Positions 15,001-21,000 of a DNA stretch of 33,624 nt are shown here, one piece after another (within the stretch, counting starts at the first letter, position 1; every line of letters starts with the position of its first letter). Position numbers: made by a program. The stretch covers positions 1 to 33,624 of the forward strand of contig CAYTYC010000013.1 of assembly GCA_964442255.1 (NCBI GenBank), given 5' to 3'. This DNA is from an uncultured archaeon (GTDB lineage Archaea; Iainarchaeota; Iainarchaeia; Iainarchaeales; 1-14-0-10-31-34).

Positions 15001-18000
15001 ACATCGTTGCGGGCTGGACTGCAAGCGACACCGTCGCAGCAGCGAAAGAATTCATTGACATGCTGGAAGCAATTTGATTCCGGCAAACAAAAAAGGTCTT
15101 TTAAAGGCCTTTTCTTCTTCTTTTTTTTTTAATTTCCTTCCAGCCGGAGGCACGTCCCGGCAGGAATTTTTTGGCGTGAATTCCAGTGCCTCAAAAACTA
15201 TTTCGTGGAGCCCCGGCTGTTTTAATGGGCGAATGAATTGTTTCCGTCAGAATTGGACTGTGTTGGACTGGTTTGTGTTGTTAAGCCGGCTGTTTTAATG
15301 GGCGAATGAATTGTTTCCGTCAGGCCGTTTGCGGGAACAAAAATTCAGCGGATTTTTAACCCGCCGTAGTCTAAAAAAAAACCTCTGCTTTGGCTCCGCT
15401 TTTTATTGCTTTCCCACCTGAATTCTACAAATGAAATGGAAGGAGATTGTGTTGGCTGTTGCGATAATAATCGCTATTGCCGCCCTGGTTTACGTGAACT
15501 TTCTTCCAAAGGAAAAAGCCTACACCTATTCGGTGCGGGAAGAGGGCGTGCTTTTTGCCTCGGATTTGGCTCCCCCCGGGGAACTGCTCCAGTTCAACGC
15601 CCAGCACAGCACCTTCATTGTTTCGCATGAATTCAGGGAAGGAACCGAAAACTTGGATGACGTGACAAACGCCTTGACCGCATTTCAGGCGGTCCTCACG
15701 GCCGCGGACAAAAAAGTTGTAACCGTTTTAAGGGAAACCGATGCGGAAGGGAACCTTTTGGGCTGCCAGACAAACAAGGGGGACAGGAAAGAAGTGTTCG
15801 AGGTTTCGGCCGAGGAGTGCAGGGAAATCCTGCGGGAAAAAGGCGTTCTGGTAAATATTTTTTCCCCTGACCCCTCACTGAAACAGCCCACGGTTGTTTT
15901 GCACAGGGAAAAAATAGATGTTTTTCCCTCTTCCGAAAACAATTCTTCCCTTTATCTTCTCATCCTTAAATCCATGTTCAGGAACACGCAGGAGGTTCTG
16001 GACGCAATCAACGCAATGGTTGCCGTAAGGTAAGCTCAATGAACAGCGCATTGTTTAAGTCAGCTGCCGCGTTCATCCTTTTTTTTGCAGTCCTTGCGGT
16101 TCTTTCCATTCTCACTAACGCCTTTGAGGTTTTAAGGGAATTAAGTGTCCCGCTTTTTGTTCTTGCATCGCTTTTTTTCATGGCAAGCGTTTTGCTTTGG
16201 GTCCTTTCCTGGGCGCACATCATAAAAAGAAAATCACGGGTTCCACTCAAATCTCTTTTGGTAATAGGCTTTTCCTCTTTGTACGGCTCCCTGACCCCCG
16301 TGCAGCTTGGCGCGGAGGCCCTCCGCTCCATGGGCCTGAAAAAAAATTTTGGCGTCCCTTACAGTGAATCCATTTCCGCGAGCGTAATAGTAAAGGGAAC
16401 CAAGTTTTTGATTCTCGCATTCCTTTTCCTTTTGGTTCTGTCCCTTTTTTTGCTTCAGGCGGAGGCAAGCGGGATTTTTTTGTTCGGAATTTTAAGCGGG
16501 TTTGCGGTGGTGGTGCTTGCGGTCCTTGTTTTCCTTTTTCCCCTAAGCAGGCGGCTCGGGGAAAGGCTTTCCCTGTTTTTTGAATGGCTGGCGAAGAGAA
16601 TCAAGCCTTGCGGTCTCCTTTCCGGGTTTTTCAGAAGCTATTCCCTTCACCTCCGTTCAGTTTCCCCGCGCTCTTTTTTATTTGTTCTCGTTTTGTCTGT
16701 TTTTTCCTGGGGGCTGGAATTCCTTGCATTGAATTACAGTTTCCTGTCAGTCGGAATTGGGCTGAACATTCTCCCCGTGCTTGTTTTGTTTGTTTTGGTT
16801 TCCGTCCTTGAAAGGAATCCCGTTCTTCCCCGCGGAATCGGCTTGGTGGAGTTTGTGGGCTTTTATTACCTTTCAATTCCCGCATTTGTTGACTCCGCTT
16901 TGACGGTTTCCCAGATCGGCGCAGTTCTGGTGGTGTTTGATGTTGTGAGGCTGGCTGTTCCCGCCTTACTGAGCATTGCGGTAAGCTTTTTGTTCAGCCC
17001 AAAAAAAGCATGAAAACGCTGAACCAAAAGGCGCAGTTCAGGAAAACAACAGCCCAAATAAGTGAAACAATTTTCCATTCCTTCATCGGGCCGAAAACCC
17101 GGATAAGCAGTTTTGCGAAATCATAACCGCTTGCAGAATCAGGCATTCCAATTCTTCCGTCCGAAAGGATTTTGTAGGGCCTTGTTTTGGATTGGGAGGC
17201 GTCCTTTGCATTGGTTAAAAGCTTTAAAGCGAAGAAGTCAACCATGTGCGGAAGAAAGAAAAGGAACACAAGAAAAAAGTGCAGGGGGTTTCCGTTCAAT
17301 ACCGCAAGACCCGCAATCCCTGACCCAAAGAAAAGCGTTCCCGCATCCCCTTCCAAAGCCTTTGCCGGGTAAATGTTCCACGCAAGGAACGCAACAATAA
17401 GCCCGGCCAGTATTACCGCCATTCCGTAAAGAATAGTTCCCTGCATTAACAGCAGGGTGAAGGACGCTATTATCAGCCCGCTTCCCGCCTGCCAGCCGTT
17501 CAGCCCCGCGAAAGTGTTCTGGAAGGAGGCAATTCCAGCCACAAACAATGCCAGGGGAACAACCCAAAGGATTGAGGGGGCGAAAAAAAATGCAAAGCCA
17601 AGCGAAGCCACCGCAATTGGAACCGCCCTCACTTTCCACCCCAAAAAGGGCTTCACAAATTTTGGCTTCATGTCGTCAAGGAATCCGATTACCGAAAAAA
17701 TGCTTGCAAGCAGCCCCCAAGCAATGGGGGCAATGCTTTGGGTGTGAAGGAAAAGAGCCAAAACCGAAAGCCAGAGGGCAGGCAAAAGCGCTATTCCCGT
17801 GCCTTCGCTTATTTCCGGCAGCGAAGGCTTGTTTATGTCCATGCCTATTGCAATCCGCCTGTTTTCGTTCACTTTCCTGTAAAGGAACACAAACAAAAAT
17901 CCGAGAACCGAGGAAAAAATAAGCAAAAAAACAGTGTCAGCCATTTTTCATTAACTCCCGTAAAATTATTGTCGCATAATTTCCTTTCGGAAGGCTGAAA

Positions 18001-21000
18001 GCGATTGCCGCAAGGCTTTTTCCCTTGTTTAGCTCATCCGCGCCTGTCGCTATTATTTTGGGCTCTTCTGGTTTTAAAACAATCTGTTTTCTTGAGCCTT
18101 TTGAGGAAACCTCGGGCATTTGCCTTACCCTGAAGTTTTCCAGCGAAATTCCCTCTTCCTCCAGAACCAGTCCCTCTATTTTTCCCGCCTTTCCTTTTGC
18201 GAGAACGCTTTCAAACCCGTAGAGGGCAGCGGTTGGAACCCCGCACTCCAAAATGTCTCCGCCCGTTTTTTCCAGCCCAATTCCTTCTTCAATTCTCTTG
18301 TTTATTATTTTGTTAAACAAATAGGACTGGTATGCGTGCACAAACATATACCTTAAAGAGCGCGGAAGCTTTTGGAACGCCCCGACAAAATCCTTTGGAT
18401 GCCTGCACAGGTGGTGGAGTATTGCGCGCTCGTACCTGTATTTTGCGGGAAAAGAGTTTGACGCCCTGCTGTAGTTTCCGGTTTTCGCAAGCTCAATCCG
18501 CGCGTCCTTCACGTTTTCTTCTTCCTCAGGGGAAACGGACGTCAAGTAAAGCATCACCCCTTTTTCAATTTCTCCCTTCACGAACTCTTTTCCGACCAAG
18601 TGCGTCACTTTTCGTATTCCCCCGAACCTCTGCTCCCCAAAATAATTTATTACCCCTTTTTCCATTTGCCTGAAGCATTCCTCCAGGTTTTTCCTGAGCT
18701 CTTTTTCCCCCAATCCAATCCCGCGGATTGTGACCTCAAACCGGTTTCCCTTCAAGTCCCCCAAATCAACGCGTTCTTTTCCCCATTCCGGGTTCCTTAA
18801 GCGCAGGTACCTGGACTTAAAGCCATCAACTTTTTTTGCTTCGGGATTGAAAAGCGAAATTCTCTGCACTGTTACAGCGCGCTTGTCCTTCATTCCTGCA
18901 AAACCCACGCGCTTTTTGCTGAACCCCATGGAACGGGTTATTCTCCTGACCGCGTCATTCACGTCCAGGTTGAATTTTTCCATTTCAATGACAAGCTGGC
19001 TGAATTCCCTTTCATCTGTCCTTTCCGGAACCTTCAGCCCCGCGTCATCCAAACCCTTTTCAAATGTTGTTTCCAGAACCCTTCCTTCAGGGGTTATCTC
19101 CCGCACAATGAAATCCGTTGGCTTCTGCTTTATTTTTCCCCCTATTCCGGGAGTTGAGGTCGTGAAATGGATTATTCCTGTCAAAAGCAGTTTCACCTTC
19201 ACTTGTACCTGAGCAGGGCGCCTATTCCTCCGAATCCCCTGAAAAACTGTTCGCCTTCATCTGTTTCGGTTGAAATTATTTTGATTTCCGCGCCTGTTTC
19301 CGACGCCTTTTCAAGCATGTAATCCAGATAATCAACTTCTTCCACTATTTCCATTGGTGAACCGCATTTCGGGCAGTTCATTGTTGAAGGCACTTCCCCG
19401 GATTCCTTTATTATTTGCACGTGCTCTTCACCGCATGCATCGCATTTTCCTTTAAGCACGGTCCACTCAATCCCTTCGCTCAGCAAAAGTGTTTTCGCCT
19501 GCCCTATTTTGAGCGCGCCTTCAGCCTCTTTTTGGCCGTAGGCAGCAAGCCCTCCTTTAACTGCCTCCTCCAGGAATTCATTTAAAATGCTTTTTTCTTT
19601 CATGAGGGCGGTGCCCTTCAGTATTTCCCCGGATTTTTGCACCACTTCCCTTATCCCCGATTCATCCGTGTAAGAGGTGTCAACGGTTCCCAGGATTTTT
19701 TCCTTCAGCCTGTGGTCCAATTCCCCCTGCTCCAGGAAATCGTTTTTCGTTATTCCCGGGCCGCCGATAATCATTCCCTTCAGGGTGTTGCCGTATTCCA
19801 GGAAAATCGAGTTAACCTTTTCGGAAACCCGTTTGAAGAATTCCTTTGCTGCCTCCTCCCTCAGCCTTTCAAAACGGTGGGCGCTCTGCCCTCCAGCCCG
19901 CGTCTTTCCCGCAACACCTGAAGTAAAATGCCCGAGGATGTCGTATTTTTTTCCCTTCAAAACCGCGACAGTTGATTCCCTTTTGTCTATTGTAACCAGC
20001 GCGTAAATTTCAGTGGGTTTCGCCATTTCCTCCAATGGCTTCAAATGGAATTCGGAATCGCACCAGTAAAGTTTTACTTTAAGCGTTTGTGGGGGGCGGA
20101 GGGTGAAAAGCCTTATGTCTGTTTTTCCCTCCTGCTCTGAAATGTTTCCACAGAACACAACCAACCCGTTTTTCGGGATTTTGAAGTCAATTTGCTTCAA
20201 GAAATTGTTTATTTTTCTGAGCGCGCCCTGCACGTTTTTCCGGGTCTGCGGGCTTTTGATGTTGGAGCTCTGGCTCATTTCCTCGGTTATCTGCCCCATA
20301 ACCGTGCCCCTGTCGGCATCCTCCGGAATGTAGAGGCTGATTAGCTCTGTGCCCTTTCCCCTGAACCGGGAAAGCTTCCTGAGTTTTTTCCTGAAAACAA
20401 TCCCCAATTCCTGTTCATCCACTTCACGCATGCAATCACCTAAATTATTGAACATCAACCTTATTAATCACTTCCAACTAAATCATCCTGATTCCTGATG
20501 TTTGATATGTTTGACATGTTCAACGAGGAAAAGCAGGGCTCCCCGCCCCCTTCCCCTGAACCCGATTACTCCCCTTCTTCTTCAGGAACCCTTTTTGTTG
20601 TTTCCATTGGGGGAAGCGCAATCATAAAGCAAAAGCCGGACTCTTCGCTGATAGCAAAAATAGCGAACTCCGTTAATAACCTTAAAAGGGAAGGCTATAA
20701 ATTCGCTTTGGTTGTGGGGGGAGGAAAGATTGCAAGGGATTATGTCACCGCGGCAAAAACCCTGGGCTCAAACTATTACCTTATGGATGAATTGGCGATA
20801 ACAATCACCCAGGCGAACGCAATGCTTTTAATCAACGCCCTGGAGGACGCCTACCCAAAGGTTTTAACTGATGTGAGGAAATCCAGGGAAGTGATTGACT
20901 CCGGAAAAATTCCCGTGTTTGGGGGGCTTCTCCCGGTTTTTACAACCGATTCCGTTGCCGCGCTTGTTTCAGAGTATTTGAACGCAACCTTCATCAACCT

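What a model noticed while it worked through the whole genome (the two positions that open the first line are those of the whole stretch)
17937..19202. Only one pseudouridine synthase left: no Cbf5, Pus10 or TruA
TruD (g00830) is the only pseudouridine synthase gene in this genome: Cbf5/TruB with Nop10 and Gar1, Pus10, TruA and the RluA/RsuA families are all missing, as they are in a closed genome of the same order. I read this as an archaeon whose tRNAs lack the near-universal pseudouridine 55 (and 54, 38-40) and whose rRNA has no pseudouridine, or in which another enzyme has taken over. New would be a natural lineage without the T-psi-C pseudouridine and without the H/ACA guide-RNA machinery.
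Evidence so far: pfam.tsv, ncbifam.tsv and swissprot.tsv: TruD g00830 is the only hit to any pseudouridine-synthase, Nop10, Gar1 or PUA family. Six-frame search for TruB_N PF01509: 0 hits in G000; in 215 genomes of the phylum 18 hits, only 2 of them in the order Iainarchaeales (G021, G111) and 16 in the sister orders; all 14 control genomes hit. Pus10 TIGR01213: over its cut-off in 133 of 215, but not in G000, 1 of 8 in this family, 0 of 23 in family f20, not in the closed G016. TruA PF01416 and Pus10: none in G000, G001 (99% complete), G033 (96%), G016 (closed), both present in the sister-order control G151, which also has Cbf5. No paper with DPANN plus Cbf5 or Pus10 among the ten best of 70 listed.
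(Added by a program. Inside this text positions count along the whole contig: contig position 1 is position 1 of the stretch shown here. "Call 12" and the like, gene names such as g00115 and contig names such as C1 are that model's own, and its searches are not shown. The text may have been shortened before it was handed on; [...] marks where a part breaks off. The agent that wrote the report below was given it as the finding of a first reader that could run no searches.)

Follow-up and report, generated by a model that had tools for sequence, protein, structure and literature searches.

The report
Archaeon keeps only one pseudouridine synthase
This small archaeal genome has an ordinary TruD gene but has truly deleted every other known pseudouridine-making enzyme, so its tRNAs probably lack the almost universal pseudouridine 55.

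Summary
ORF 17937-19202(-) is a normal, single-copy TruD. Six-frame searches of G000 find no TruB/Cbf5, Pus10, TruA, RluA/RsuA, Nop10 or Gar1. HMMs I built from relatives' Pus10, Cbf5 and TruA also find nothing.

These are real deletions, not assembly gaps:
- A sister-order genome has L34e-Cmk-L14e-Cbf5-S13-S4. G000 has the same cluster with 6 bp where cbf5 should be.
- Another genome of the order has IDI2-like-Pus10-DtdA. G000 has 75 bp in that slot.

Across relatives:
- Cbf5: 2 of 196 genomes of the order, against 16 of 19 in sister orders.
- TruA: 0 of 196, against 10 of 19.
- Nop10: 0 of 55 high-quality genomes, against 3 of 3.
- TruD: 188 of 196.
- Pus10: 122 of 196, lost repeatedly, including in G000's clade.

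Box C/D proteins and Trm56 remain. In 36 of 37 tRNA calls the T-loop keeps U54 and U55.

That the RNAs lack pseudouridine is inferred, not shown. TruB-less Mollicutes are a bacterial precedent (PMC4014445). I found no archaeal precedent in the held papers.

The parts
17937..19202 (-). truD, tRNA pseudouridine(13) synthase TruD/Pus7 type, 421 aa, GTG start. It is the only pseudouridine synthase gene found in the genome.
   Evidence: PF01142 E 4.3e-117. TIGR00094 267.1 bits, above the 172.2 cut-off, covering profile positions 14-410 of 413. Best solved relative is 1z2z_A, E 3.1e-83. G103, K105, D106, K107 and R108 are nearly invariant, kept in at least 40 of 41 TruDs of the order. It is the single hit of my TruD HMM in G000.
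19199..20458 (-). Peptide chain release factor aRF1 (eRF1 domains 1-3), directly upstream of truD. Its stop overlaps the truD start by 4 nt, so the two are probably co-transcribed (inference).
   Evidence: PF03463, PF03464 and PF03465. Coordinates.
16994..17944 (-). Glycosyltransferase family 4 membrane protein, directly downstream of truD and overlapping it by 8 nt. Context only.
   Evidence: PF00953 E 2.4e-14. Coordinates.
20498..21286 (+). Amino-acid-kinase family protein, divergently oriented. Context only.
   Evidence: PF00696 E 1.4e-29.

Best explanation
The window carries an ordinary, intact TruD gene. What is unusual is the rest of the genome.

The ancestor of this archaeal order lost Cbf5, Nop10 and TruA, probably with Gar1. 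That removes H/ACA-guided and Cbf5-dependent pseudouridylation and psi38-40. Several clades within the order, including G000's, later lost Pus10 as well. Pus10 is the enzyme that makes psi54/psi55 in archaeal tRNA.

G000 therefore has no known way to isomerise U55, U54 or U38-40 in tRNA, or uridines in rRNA. Most likely it translates with tRNAs carrying plain U54-U55 in an otherwise canonical T-loop, and keeps only the TruD-made pseudouridines (psi13, possibly psi35).

Shown: the gene content, the empty syntenic slots, the phylogenetic distribution, the retention of box C/D proteins and Trm56, and the intact T-loop sequences. Inferred: the modification state of the RNAs, and that the loss is tolerated because these enzymes are individually dispensable outside high temperature.
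For: 1. G000 has none of the five other synthase families and no Nop10 or Gar1. Lineage-specific HMMs and tblastn agree.

2. cbf5 was deleted cleanly.
- Sister-order G214 has L34e-Cmk-L14e(KOW)-Cbf5(333 aa)-S13-S4.
- G000 contig C5 has L34e-Cmk-62-aa ORF-S13-S4. The 62-aa ORF matches G214's L14e by tblastn but has no Pfam hit.
- 6 bp without any N separate that ORF's stop from the S13 ATG.

3. pus10 was deleted cleanly.
- G172 has AA-kinase, an FMN_dh-family gene (IDI2-like), Pus10, then convergent DtdA.
- G000 contig C21 has the same genes, at 54% and 40% identity, with a 75-bp spacer without N in place of Pus10.

4. Distribution.
- TruB_N: 2/196 in the order against 16/19 in sister orders.
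- TruA: 0/196 against 10/19.
- Nop10: 0/55 high-quality genomes against 3/3.
- PF00849: 0/58.
- Gar1: only in the sister-order genome among 5 tested.
- TruD, the positive control: 188/196 and 55/55 high-quality genomes.

5. Pus10 is present in 122/196 genomes, and absences are coherent by genus: g2 0/6, g5 0/4, g28 0/7, against g6 3/3, g15 7/7, g20 7/7. The G000 family has 1 of 8, and the 99%-complete G018 lacks it.

6. The loss is selective, not a general collapse.
- Fibrillarin: 5/5.
- Nop5: 9/9.
- L7Ae: 9/9.
- Trm56: 8/9.

7. The substrate is kept. 36 of 37 ARAGORN tRNA calls have G53-U54-U55-C56-R57-A58.

8. Loss is plausible. Single knock-outs of cbf5, nop10, gar1 and pus10 in Thermococcus kodakarensis are viable with heat-sensitive growth (PMC6138745, abstract and passages).
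Against: - No RNA modification was measured. Absence of known genes is not absence of pseudouridine.
- Pus10 is reported essential in H. volcanii (PMC6138745 passages). aPus10 and Cbf5 are reported essential in S. islandicus (PMC11077068 passages). Complete loss without a replacement is therefore not trivially expected.
- U54 and U55 stay conserved. This is what the T-loop fold requires anyway, but it also fits continued modification.
- My remote-homology reach is limited. A single-sequence hhalign of TruD against the Pus10 and Cbf5 profiles gave probability below 1%, so a new or very divergent synthase family would have escaped every search made here.
- TruA absence rests on PF01416 and my own HMM. 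The PF01416 control misses S. acidocaldarius, finding 13 of 14 controls.
- I found no syntenic slot for TruA.
- The first Pus10 synteny comparison, G017 against G000, was inconclusive because of a rearrangement and a 10-N scaffold gap near one flank.
Confidence: 0.75

Rival explanations
1. Psi55 is still made, perhaps with other pseudouridines, by an enzyme that is unrelated to the six known synthase families or too divergent to recognise. This would be a non-orthologous replacement.
For: - Pus10 and Cbf5 are reported essential in some archaea.
- U54 and U55 are strictly kept.
- Sequence searches cannot see across synthase families: TruD against the Pus10 and Cbf5 profiles gave probability below 1%.
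- Pus10 was lost at least 6-7 times among the 41 genomes sampled. That would be easier if a back-up enzyme existed in the order.
Against: - No candidate was found. There is no TruB/Pus10-like motif hit in 24,636 ORFs at E below 0.1.
- There is no PUA-domain protein in the family.
- Single knock-outs are viable in T. kodakarensis.
- TruB-less Mollicutes exist.
Confidence: 0.12
2. TruD has widened its specificity and now also modifies U55 or U54.
For: TruD is the one synthase that is kept, in 188/196 genomes and 55/55 high-quality genomes. Pus7-type enzymes act on several substrates (the 7mzv title reads 'multisubstrate pseudouridine synthase 7').
Against: I aligned 41 TruDs: 21 from Pus10-less genomes and 20 from Pus10-bearing genomes, hand-picked from the 188 genomes with TruD.
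- No residue is specific to the Pus10-less set across the independent losses.
- Only 10 columns differ in frequency by 0.5 or more, all conservative and following the tree.
- The catalytic GxKDKR is nearly invariant in both sets.
- TruD is single-copy in G000.
This test is weak.
Confidence: 0.04
3. The genes exist but were missed, through an incomplete or mis-binned assembly or a failure of the search.
For: G000 is 93.8% complete in 51 contigs with N runs. A 10-N gap lies near one flank of the G017-type Pus10 locus.
Against: - The cbf5 and pus10 slots are empty on uninterrupted sequence.
- Eight family genomes of 81-99% completeness, G000 among them, all lack Pus10.
- Single-contig G083 lacks all of these genes.
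- The same searches find the genes in sister orders and in the control genomes.
Confidence: 0.02
4. The cell is a symbiont that receives modified tRNAs or the modifying enzymes from its host.
For: No tool result here speaks for it.
Against: G000 encodes its own tRNAs (37 calls), plus TruD, Trm56 and a complete set of box C/D proteins. It therefore matures its own RNAs. No precedent known to me (recalled).
Confidence: 0.03

Closest known systems
TruB-less and TruA-less Mollicutes (Mycoplasma genitalium, M. pneumoniae, hemoplasmas); Grosjean et al. 2014, PMC4014445, passages read
   Same: A reduced genome has lost the tRNA psi55 synthase gene, and in some lineages TruA too, while the translation apparatus stays functional.
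   Different: Those are bacteria, and the enzyme lost is TruB. Here the organism is an archaeon that lost both possible psi55 enzymes (Pus10 and Cbf5), the H/ACA partner Nop10 and probably Gar1, and TruA. Nop10 is missing from all 55 high-quality genomes of the order, and Cbf5 and TruA from 194 and 196 of its 196 genomes.
Laboratory knock-outs of cbf5, nop10, gar1 and pus10 in Thermococcus kodakarensis (PMC6138745) and of cbf5 in Haloferax volcanii (as cited in PMC6138745 and PMC11077068)
   Same: Archaea can live without Cbf5, or without Pus10, with mild or heat-sensitive growth defects.
   Different: Those are single deletions made in the laboratory. No cbf5 pus10 double mutant appears in the passages I read. 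Here both genes are absent in nature, together with TruA.
Archaeal TruD/Pus7 (solved structure 1z2z_A; eukaryotic Pus7 7mzv and 5kkp)
   Same: The window's gene is a full-length member with the conserved catalytic motif.
   Different: Nothing in the protein itself differs. Only its status as the sole synthase in the genome is unusual.
[quoted passage not shown]
   Same: L7Ae is present in 9/9 genomes. The ribosomal-protein cluster that normally holds cbf5 is conserved.
   Different: Cbf5, Nop10 and Gar1 are absent, so the complex cannot form.

Membership tests
TruD/Pus7 pseudouridine synthase | Full-length match to the family models above the curated cut-offs | tested here: met
   PF01142 391.9 bits against cut-off 27. 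TIGR00094 267.1 bits against cut-off 172.2, covering profile positions 14-410 of 413.
TruD/Pus7 pseudouridine synthase | Catalytic aspartate in the conserved G-x-K-D motif (the role of this Asp is recalled from the literature, not tested) | tested here: met
   G103, K105, D106, K107 and R108 are nearly invariant, kept in at least 40 of 41 TruDs of the order. The motif aligns with 1z2z_A.
TruD/Pus7 pseudouridine synthase | Psi13 (and psi35) synthase activity on tRNA | not testable with these tools
   15 of 37 tRNA calls have T at position 13, so potential substrates exist.
TruB/Cbf5 family and H/ACA sRNP | Cbf5 catalytic subunit (TruB_N, PUA) | tested here: not met
   TruB_N has no match at E<=10. 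PUA is found in 0 of 9 genomes of the family. My own Cbf5 HMM finds nothing. The cbf5 slot between the L14e-like ORF and S13 is empty.
TruB/Cbf5 family and H/ACA sRNP | Partner proteins Nop10 and Gar1 | tested here: not met
   Nop10: only a 12.6-bit noise hit in G000, and 0/55 high-quality genomes of the order against 3/3 in sister orders. Gar1: none in G000, and found only in sister-order G214 among 5 genomes. The Gar1 model is weak, exceeding its cut-off in only 2 control archaea.
TruB/Cbf5 family and H/ACA sRNP | L7Ae | tested here: met
   Present in 9/9 genomes of the family; in G000 at C5:33922-34185. It is also needed for box C/D RNPs and the ribosome.
TruB/Cbf5 family and H/ACA sRNP | H/ACA guide RNAs | not tested
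   Only the window was scanned against Rfam, with 0 matches. The whole genome was not scanned.
Pus10 (archaeal psi54/55 synthase) | Match to TIGR01213 or Pus10_C | tested here: not met
   No match at E<=10. My own HMM from 12 Pus10 proteins of the order gave best E 0.12. The slot between the IDI2-like gene and DtdA is empty.
TruA | Match to PF01416 | tested here: not met
   None in G000. 0/196 in the order. My own HMM from 6 sister-order TruA proteins finds nothing.
RluA/RsuA | Match to PF00849 | tested here: not met
   None in G000. 0/58 high-quality genomes of the phylum.

The most novel reading that the evidence does not exclude
A whole archaeal order lives without the H/ACA pseudouridylation machinery and TruA. 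Several of its clades, including this genome's, also live without Pus10. Their ribosomes would then contain no Cbf5-made pseudouridine, and their tRNAs would carry an unmodified U54-U55. That would make them natural organisms in which the 'universal' T-psi-C loop is T-loop UUC. The bolder alternative is that an unknown seventh kind of pseudouridine synthase makes psi55 in these cells.
Probability: 0.75. Interest if true: 0.7.

Novelty: new variant of a known kind. Interest (0 to 1): 0.6.

Why it matters
Psi55 and the H/ACA RNP are treated as near-universal. [quoted passage not shown]

A natural archaeal clade without either would have three consequences:
1. It sets a lower bound on the pseudouridines an archaeal translation system needs. 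TruD's products outlast all others, since TruD is kept in 55 of 55 high-quality genomes.
2. It offers natural Pus10-plus and Pus10-minus sister genera for asking what psi54/55 is for.
3. Cbf5 should not be counted as a universal archaeal marker when judging the completeness of such genomes.

If psi55 turns out to be present after all, the lineage hides a new synthase.

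Tried and rejected
- Synteny of the only Pus10 locus in G000's family (G017) against G000. 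The left flank is collinear with C3:263-4013. The order then breaks, and a 10-N scaffold gap lies about 1 kb from the right-flank ortholog, so this was not decisive. The G172-type locus gave the clean answer instead.
- TruA synteny. The sister-order flanking genes map to two distant places on G000 contig C3, so there is no usable slot.
- hhalign as a cross-family detector. TruD against the Pus10 and Cbf5 profiles gave probability 0.2-0.3% at 2-5 s per comparison. I abandoned this as a proteome-wide screen.
- TruD neofunctionalisation. I found no convergent signature.
- The two 'exceptions' with TruB_N in the order:
  - G051. A full Cbf5 (TIGR00425 474 bits) sits on a 1.7-kb contig in a genome without Nop10. 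This is probably a stray contig.
  - G020. A 271-aa Cbf5-like ORF lies below the cut-offs and lacks PUA. Its neighbour gene is 62% identical to a G000 gene, so it is probably a native relic.
- Rfam scan of the window: 0 matches. ARAGORN on the window: 0 tRNAs.
- Literature searches:
  - 'DPANN' + 'Cbf5': 1 paper, irrelevant.
  - 'Iainarchae' + 'pseudouridine': 0 papers.
  - 'pseudouridine synthase' + 'DPANN': 11 papers, none on this point judging by titles and abstract starts. PMC8481954 was checked by passages; it has only two DPANN taxa and does not mention Cbf5.
  - 'tRNA modification' + 'DPANN': 18 papers, none on this point judging by titles and abstract starts.
  - 'Cbf5'/'Pus10'/'metagenome-assembled': 52 papers, 15 listed, none relevant.
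- The Pus10 evolution paper PMC5863725 is not held. Its account of which archaea lack Pus10 could bear on novelty.
- No supplements were opened.

Full report
**What is at the coordinates**

The ORF at 17937-19202 on the minus strand (421 aa, GTG start) is a full-length TruD.
- It scores PF01142 E 4.3e-117.
- It scores TIGR00094 267.1 bits against a cut-off of 172.2, covering profile positions 14-410 of 413.
- Its best solved relative is 1z2z_A at E 3.1e-83, followed by eukaryotic Pus7 structures.
- In an alignment of 41 TruDs of the order, the motif G103-x-K105-D106-K107-R108 (G000 numbering) is nearly invariant, kept in at least 40 of 41.

The gene sits between aRF1 (19199-20458, overlapping by 4 nt) and a family-4 glycosyltransferase (16994-17944, overlapping by 8 nt), all on the minus strand. 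Nothing about the gene itself is unusual. The finding is about what the rest of the genome lacks.

**Absences in G000**

G000 is 1,277,402 b in 51 contigs, 93.8% complete and 0.23% contaminated. Six-frame family searches at E<=10 gave:
- No TruB_N.
- No Pus10 TIGR01213.
- No TruA PF01416.
- No PseudoU_synth_2 PF00849.
- For Nop10, only a 12.6-bit stretch inside a 757-aa ORF.
- No Gar1.

As an independent check I built three HMMs: from 12 Pus10 proteins of the order, from 12 Cbf5 proteins (10 from sister orders plus the 2 exceptions), and from 6 sister-order TruA proteins. I ran them over all 24,636 stop-to-stop ORFs of 30 aa or more.
- Pus10: best E 0.12.
- Cbf5: none.
- TruA: none.
- tblastn: best E 0.2 or worse.
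- A TruD HMM found exactly one ORF, the window's, at E 8.7e-193.

**The losses are real deletions**

*cbf5.* In the sister-order genome G214, Cbf5 (333 aa; TruB_N, TruB_C_2, PUA and DKCLD domains) lies in the cluster L34e - cytidylate kinase - L14e-like KOW protein - Cbf5 - S13 - S4. G000 contig C5 has the same cluster in the same order.
- L34e is at L075 1612-1941.
- Cmk is at 1938-2429.
- A 62-aa ORF is at 2422-2610. It matches G214's L14e by tblastn (43% identity over 56 aa) but has no Pfam hit.
- S13 is at 2617-3198.
- S4 is at 3252-4055.
- Between the stop of the 62-aa ORF and the S13 ATG there are 6 bases and no N.

*pus10.* In G172 of the same order, Pus10 (Pus10_C E 2e-64) follows an amino-acid-kinase gene and an FMN_dh-family (IDI2-like) gene, and faces a convergent D-aminoacyl-tRNA deacylase gene. 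G000 contig C21 has the kinase, the FMN_dh-family gene (54% identical) and the deacylase (40% identical) in the same arrangement. A 75-bp spacer without N takes the place of Pus10.

An earlier comparison with G017, the only Pus10-bearing genome of G000's family, was not decisive because of a rearrangement and a nearby 10-N gap. I found no usable slot for TruA.

**Distribution among relatives**

| Gene | Order (196 genomes, G000 included) | Sister orders or comparison |
|---|---|---|
| TruB_N (Cbf5) | 2 of 196; 1 of 55 high-quality | 16 of 19 |
| TruA | 0 of 196 | 10 of 19 |
| Nop10 | 0 of 55 high-quality | 3 of 3 high-quality |
| PF00849 (RluA/RsuA) | 0 of 55 high-quality | 0 of 3 high-quality |
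| Gar1 | 0 of 4 tested | 1 of 1 tested (G214) |
| TruD (positive control) | 188 of 196; 55 of 55 high-quality | not tested |
| Pus10 | 122 of 196 (119 over cut-off); 34 of 55 high-quality | not tested |

'High-quality' means at least 90% complete and at most 5% contaminated.

The two TruB_N exceptions in the order are these:
- G051 has a full Cbf5 (TIGR00425 474 bits) on a 1.7-kb contig, in a genome without Nop10. It is probably a stray contig.
- G020 has a 271-aa Cbf5-like ORF below the curated cut-offs and without PUA. Its neighbour gene is 62% identical to a G000 gene, so it is probably a native relic.

Pus10 behaves differently from the other genes.
- Presence or absence is coherent by genus: g2 0/6, g5 0/4 and g28 0/7, against g6 3/3, g15 7/7, g20 7/7 and g22 4/4.
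- In G000's family only G017 has it (1 of 8). G018, which is 99% complete, lacks it. One family is 0/23.
- I built a TruD tree of 41 genomes: G000, 20 Pus10-less and 20 Pus10-bearing, hand-picked from the 188 with TruD. On it the Pus10 state needs 7 changes, and well-supported branches force at least 6.
- Pus10 was therefore lost repeatedly. A single-gene tree is only a rough proxy for the species tree.
- The single-contig genome G083 (1,241,428 b, 99% complete) has TruD but none of the others.

**What is kept**
- The box C/D proteins are present: fibrillarin in 5 of 5 genomes tested (G000 C1:60623-61237), Nop5 in 9 of 9, and L7Ae in 9 of 9.
- Trm56 is present in 8 of 9.

The loss is therefore specific to pseudouridine pathways and is not a general collapse of RNA modification.

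Other T-loop enzymes are also missing from G000:
- TrmY was found only in the sister-order genome among 5 tested.
- The m5U54 methyltransferase family has no match in the four order genomes tested.
- TrmI has no match in G000. Relatives gave only weak, borderline hits: 26.4 bits in G017 and G018 (cut-off 26) and 19.4 bits in G083.
- Nep1 is absent from all 5 genomes tested.
- No PUA-domain protein exists in any of the 9 genomes of the family.

Of 37 ARAGORN tRNA calls in G000, 36 have the canonical G53-U54-U55-C56-R57-A58 T-loop, and 15 have T at position 13.

**Interpretation**

Shown:
- G000 has deleted cbf5 and pus10.
- It has no TruA, RluA/RsuA, Nop10 or Gar1.
- The Cbf5, Nop10 and TruA losses are order-wide. 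The Pus10 loss is secondary and recurrent.

Inferred: its tRNAs carry unmodified U54, U55 and U38-40, and its rRNA lacks Cbf5-dependent pseudouridine.

The inference is plausible because single knock-outs of cbf5, nop10, gar1 and pus10 in T. kodakarensis are viable with heat-sensitive growth (PMC6138745, abstract and passages). It is not safe, for two reasons:
- Pus10 is reported essential in H. volcanii, and aPus10 and Cbf5 in S. islandicus.
- None of my searches could detect a synthase of a new family. TruD against the Pus10 and Cbf5 profiles by hhalign gave probability below 1%.

I tested the idea that TruD took over the job. No residue is specific to Pus10-less lineages, and the active site is unchanged. 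This is a weak test. 'No rRNA pseudouridine at all' also goes further than the data allow, since TruD-type enzymes can act on other RNAs.

**Comparison with what is known**

- The T-loop review PMC7912444 (passages) names Pus10 as the genuine archaeal psi55 enzyme. It notes that a cbf5 deletion strain keeps psi55.
- PMC11077068 calls the H/ACA RNP universally present in archaea and eukaryotes.
- The closest precedent is bacterial. TruB is missing in M. genitalium, M. pneumoniae and three hemoplasmas, and TruA in other Mollicutes (PMC4014445, passages). A lineage without a psi55 synthase gene is therefore not new for life as a whole.
- For archaea I found nothing in print, in five searches of the held library.
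- The Pus10 evolution paper PMC5863725 is not held, and I opened no supplements.

**Verdict**

- Pus10 loss is clade-specific.
- The modification state is inferred.
- There is a bacterial precedent.

This is a new variant of a known kind, namely reductive loss of RNA-modification enzymes. It is notable because it removes machinery considered universal in archaea. Interest 0.6.

Noticed in passing
whole genome G000 and its 8 family relatives (not in the window): No PUA-domain match (PF01472) in any of the 9 genomes, while 13 of 14 control genomes have one. Besides Cbf5, the PUA-bearing archaeosine enzymes and the 'universal archaeal PUA protein' therefore seem to be missing.
   Followed up: no
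family f1 genomes; G000 C3:59114-59455: Trm56 (Cm56) is present in 8 of 9 family genomes. It is missing only in G017, the one genome that keeps Pus10. This may be chance, as G017 is 91% complete.
   Followed up: no
L003 1114-1926(-) = G020:C11: A truncated Cbf5-like ORF of 271 aa without a PUA domain, below the curated cut-offs (NF003280 204 bits against 242). Its neighbour gene is 62% identical to a G000 gene. It may be a relic or a stand-alone TruB-like enzyme in one lineage of the order.
   Followed up: partly
L002 658-1647(+) = G051:C57: A full archaeal Cbf5 (TIGR00425 474 bits) on a 1,694-b contig of 37.8% GC, in a genome that has no Nop10. Probably a mis-binned contig.
   Followed up: partly
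Pus10 loci L004-L016 of the order: The order's Pus10 proteins are about 340 aa. They match TIGR01213 only from model position about 66, or about 115, onward. G172's shows a weak archaeal THUMP domain plus Pus10_C. The N-terminal part of canonical Pus10 seems shortened.
   Followed up: no
several genomes of family f14 (for example G117, G125, G138): These genomes give 4-6 TruD matches where most genomes give 2 (two stretches of one gene). They may hold TruD paralogues or fragments.
   Followed up: no
G000 tRNA genes, for example C1:84094-84336 and C4:16958-17073: 18 of 37 ARAGORN tRNA calls carry predicted introns of up to 149 nt. One is called tRNA-Pyl(cta) with an intron, which is probably a mis-call. 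No Tyr, Met, Asn or Cys tRNA was called.
   Followed up: no
window 17937-19202 compared with relatives: G000's TruD is only 51-57% identical to those of its own family. In the TruD tree it does not group with them: it falls weakly (support 89) with another family, on an end branch of 0.5 against a median of 0.29.
   Followed up: no
window 15431-16033 (+): A 200-aa ORF with an N-terminal hydrophobic stretch and no Pfam family.
   Followed up: no
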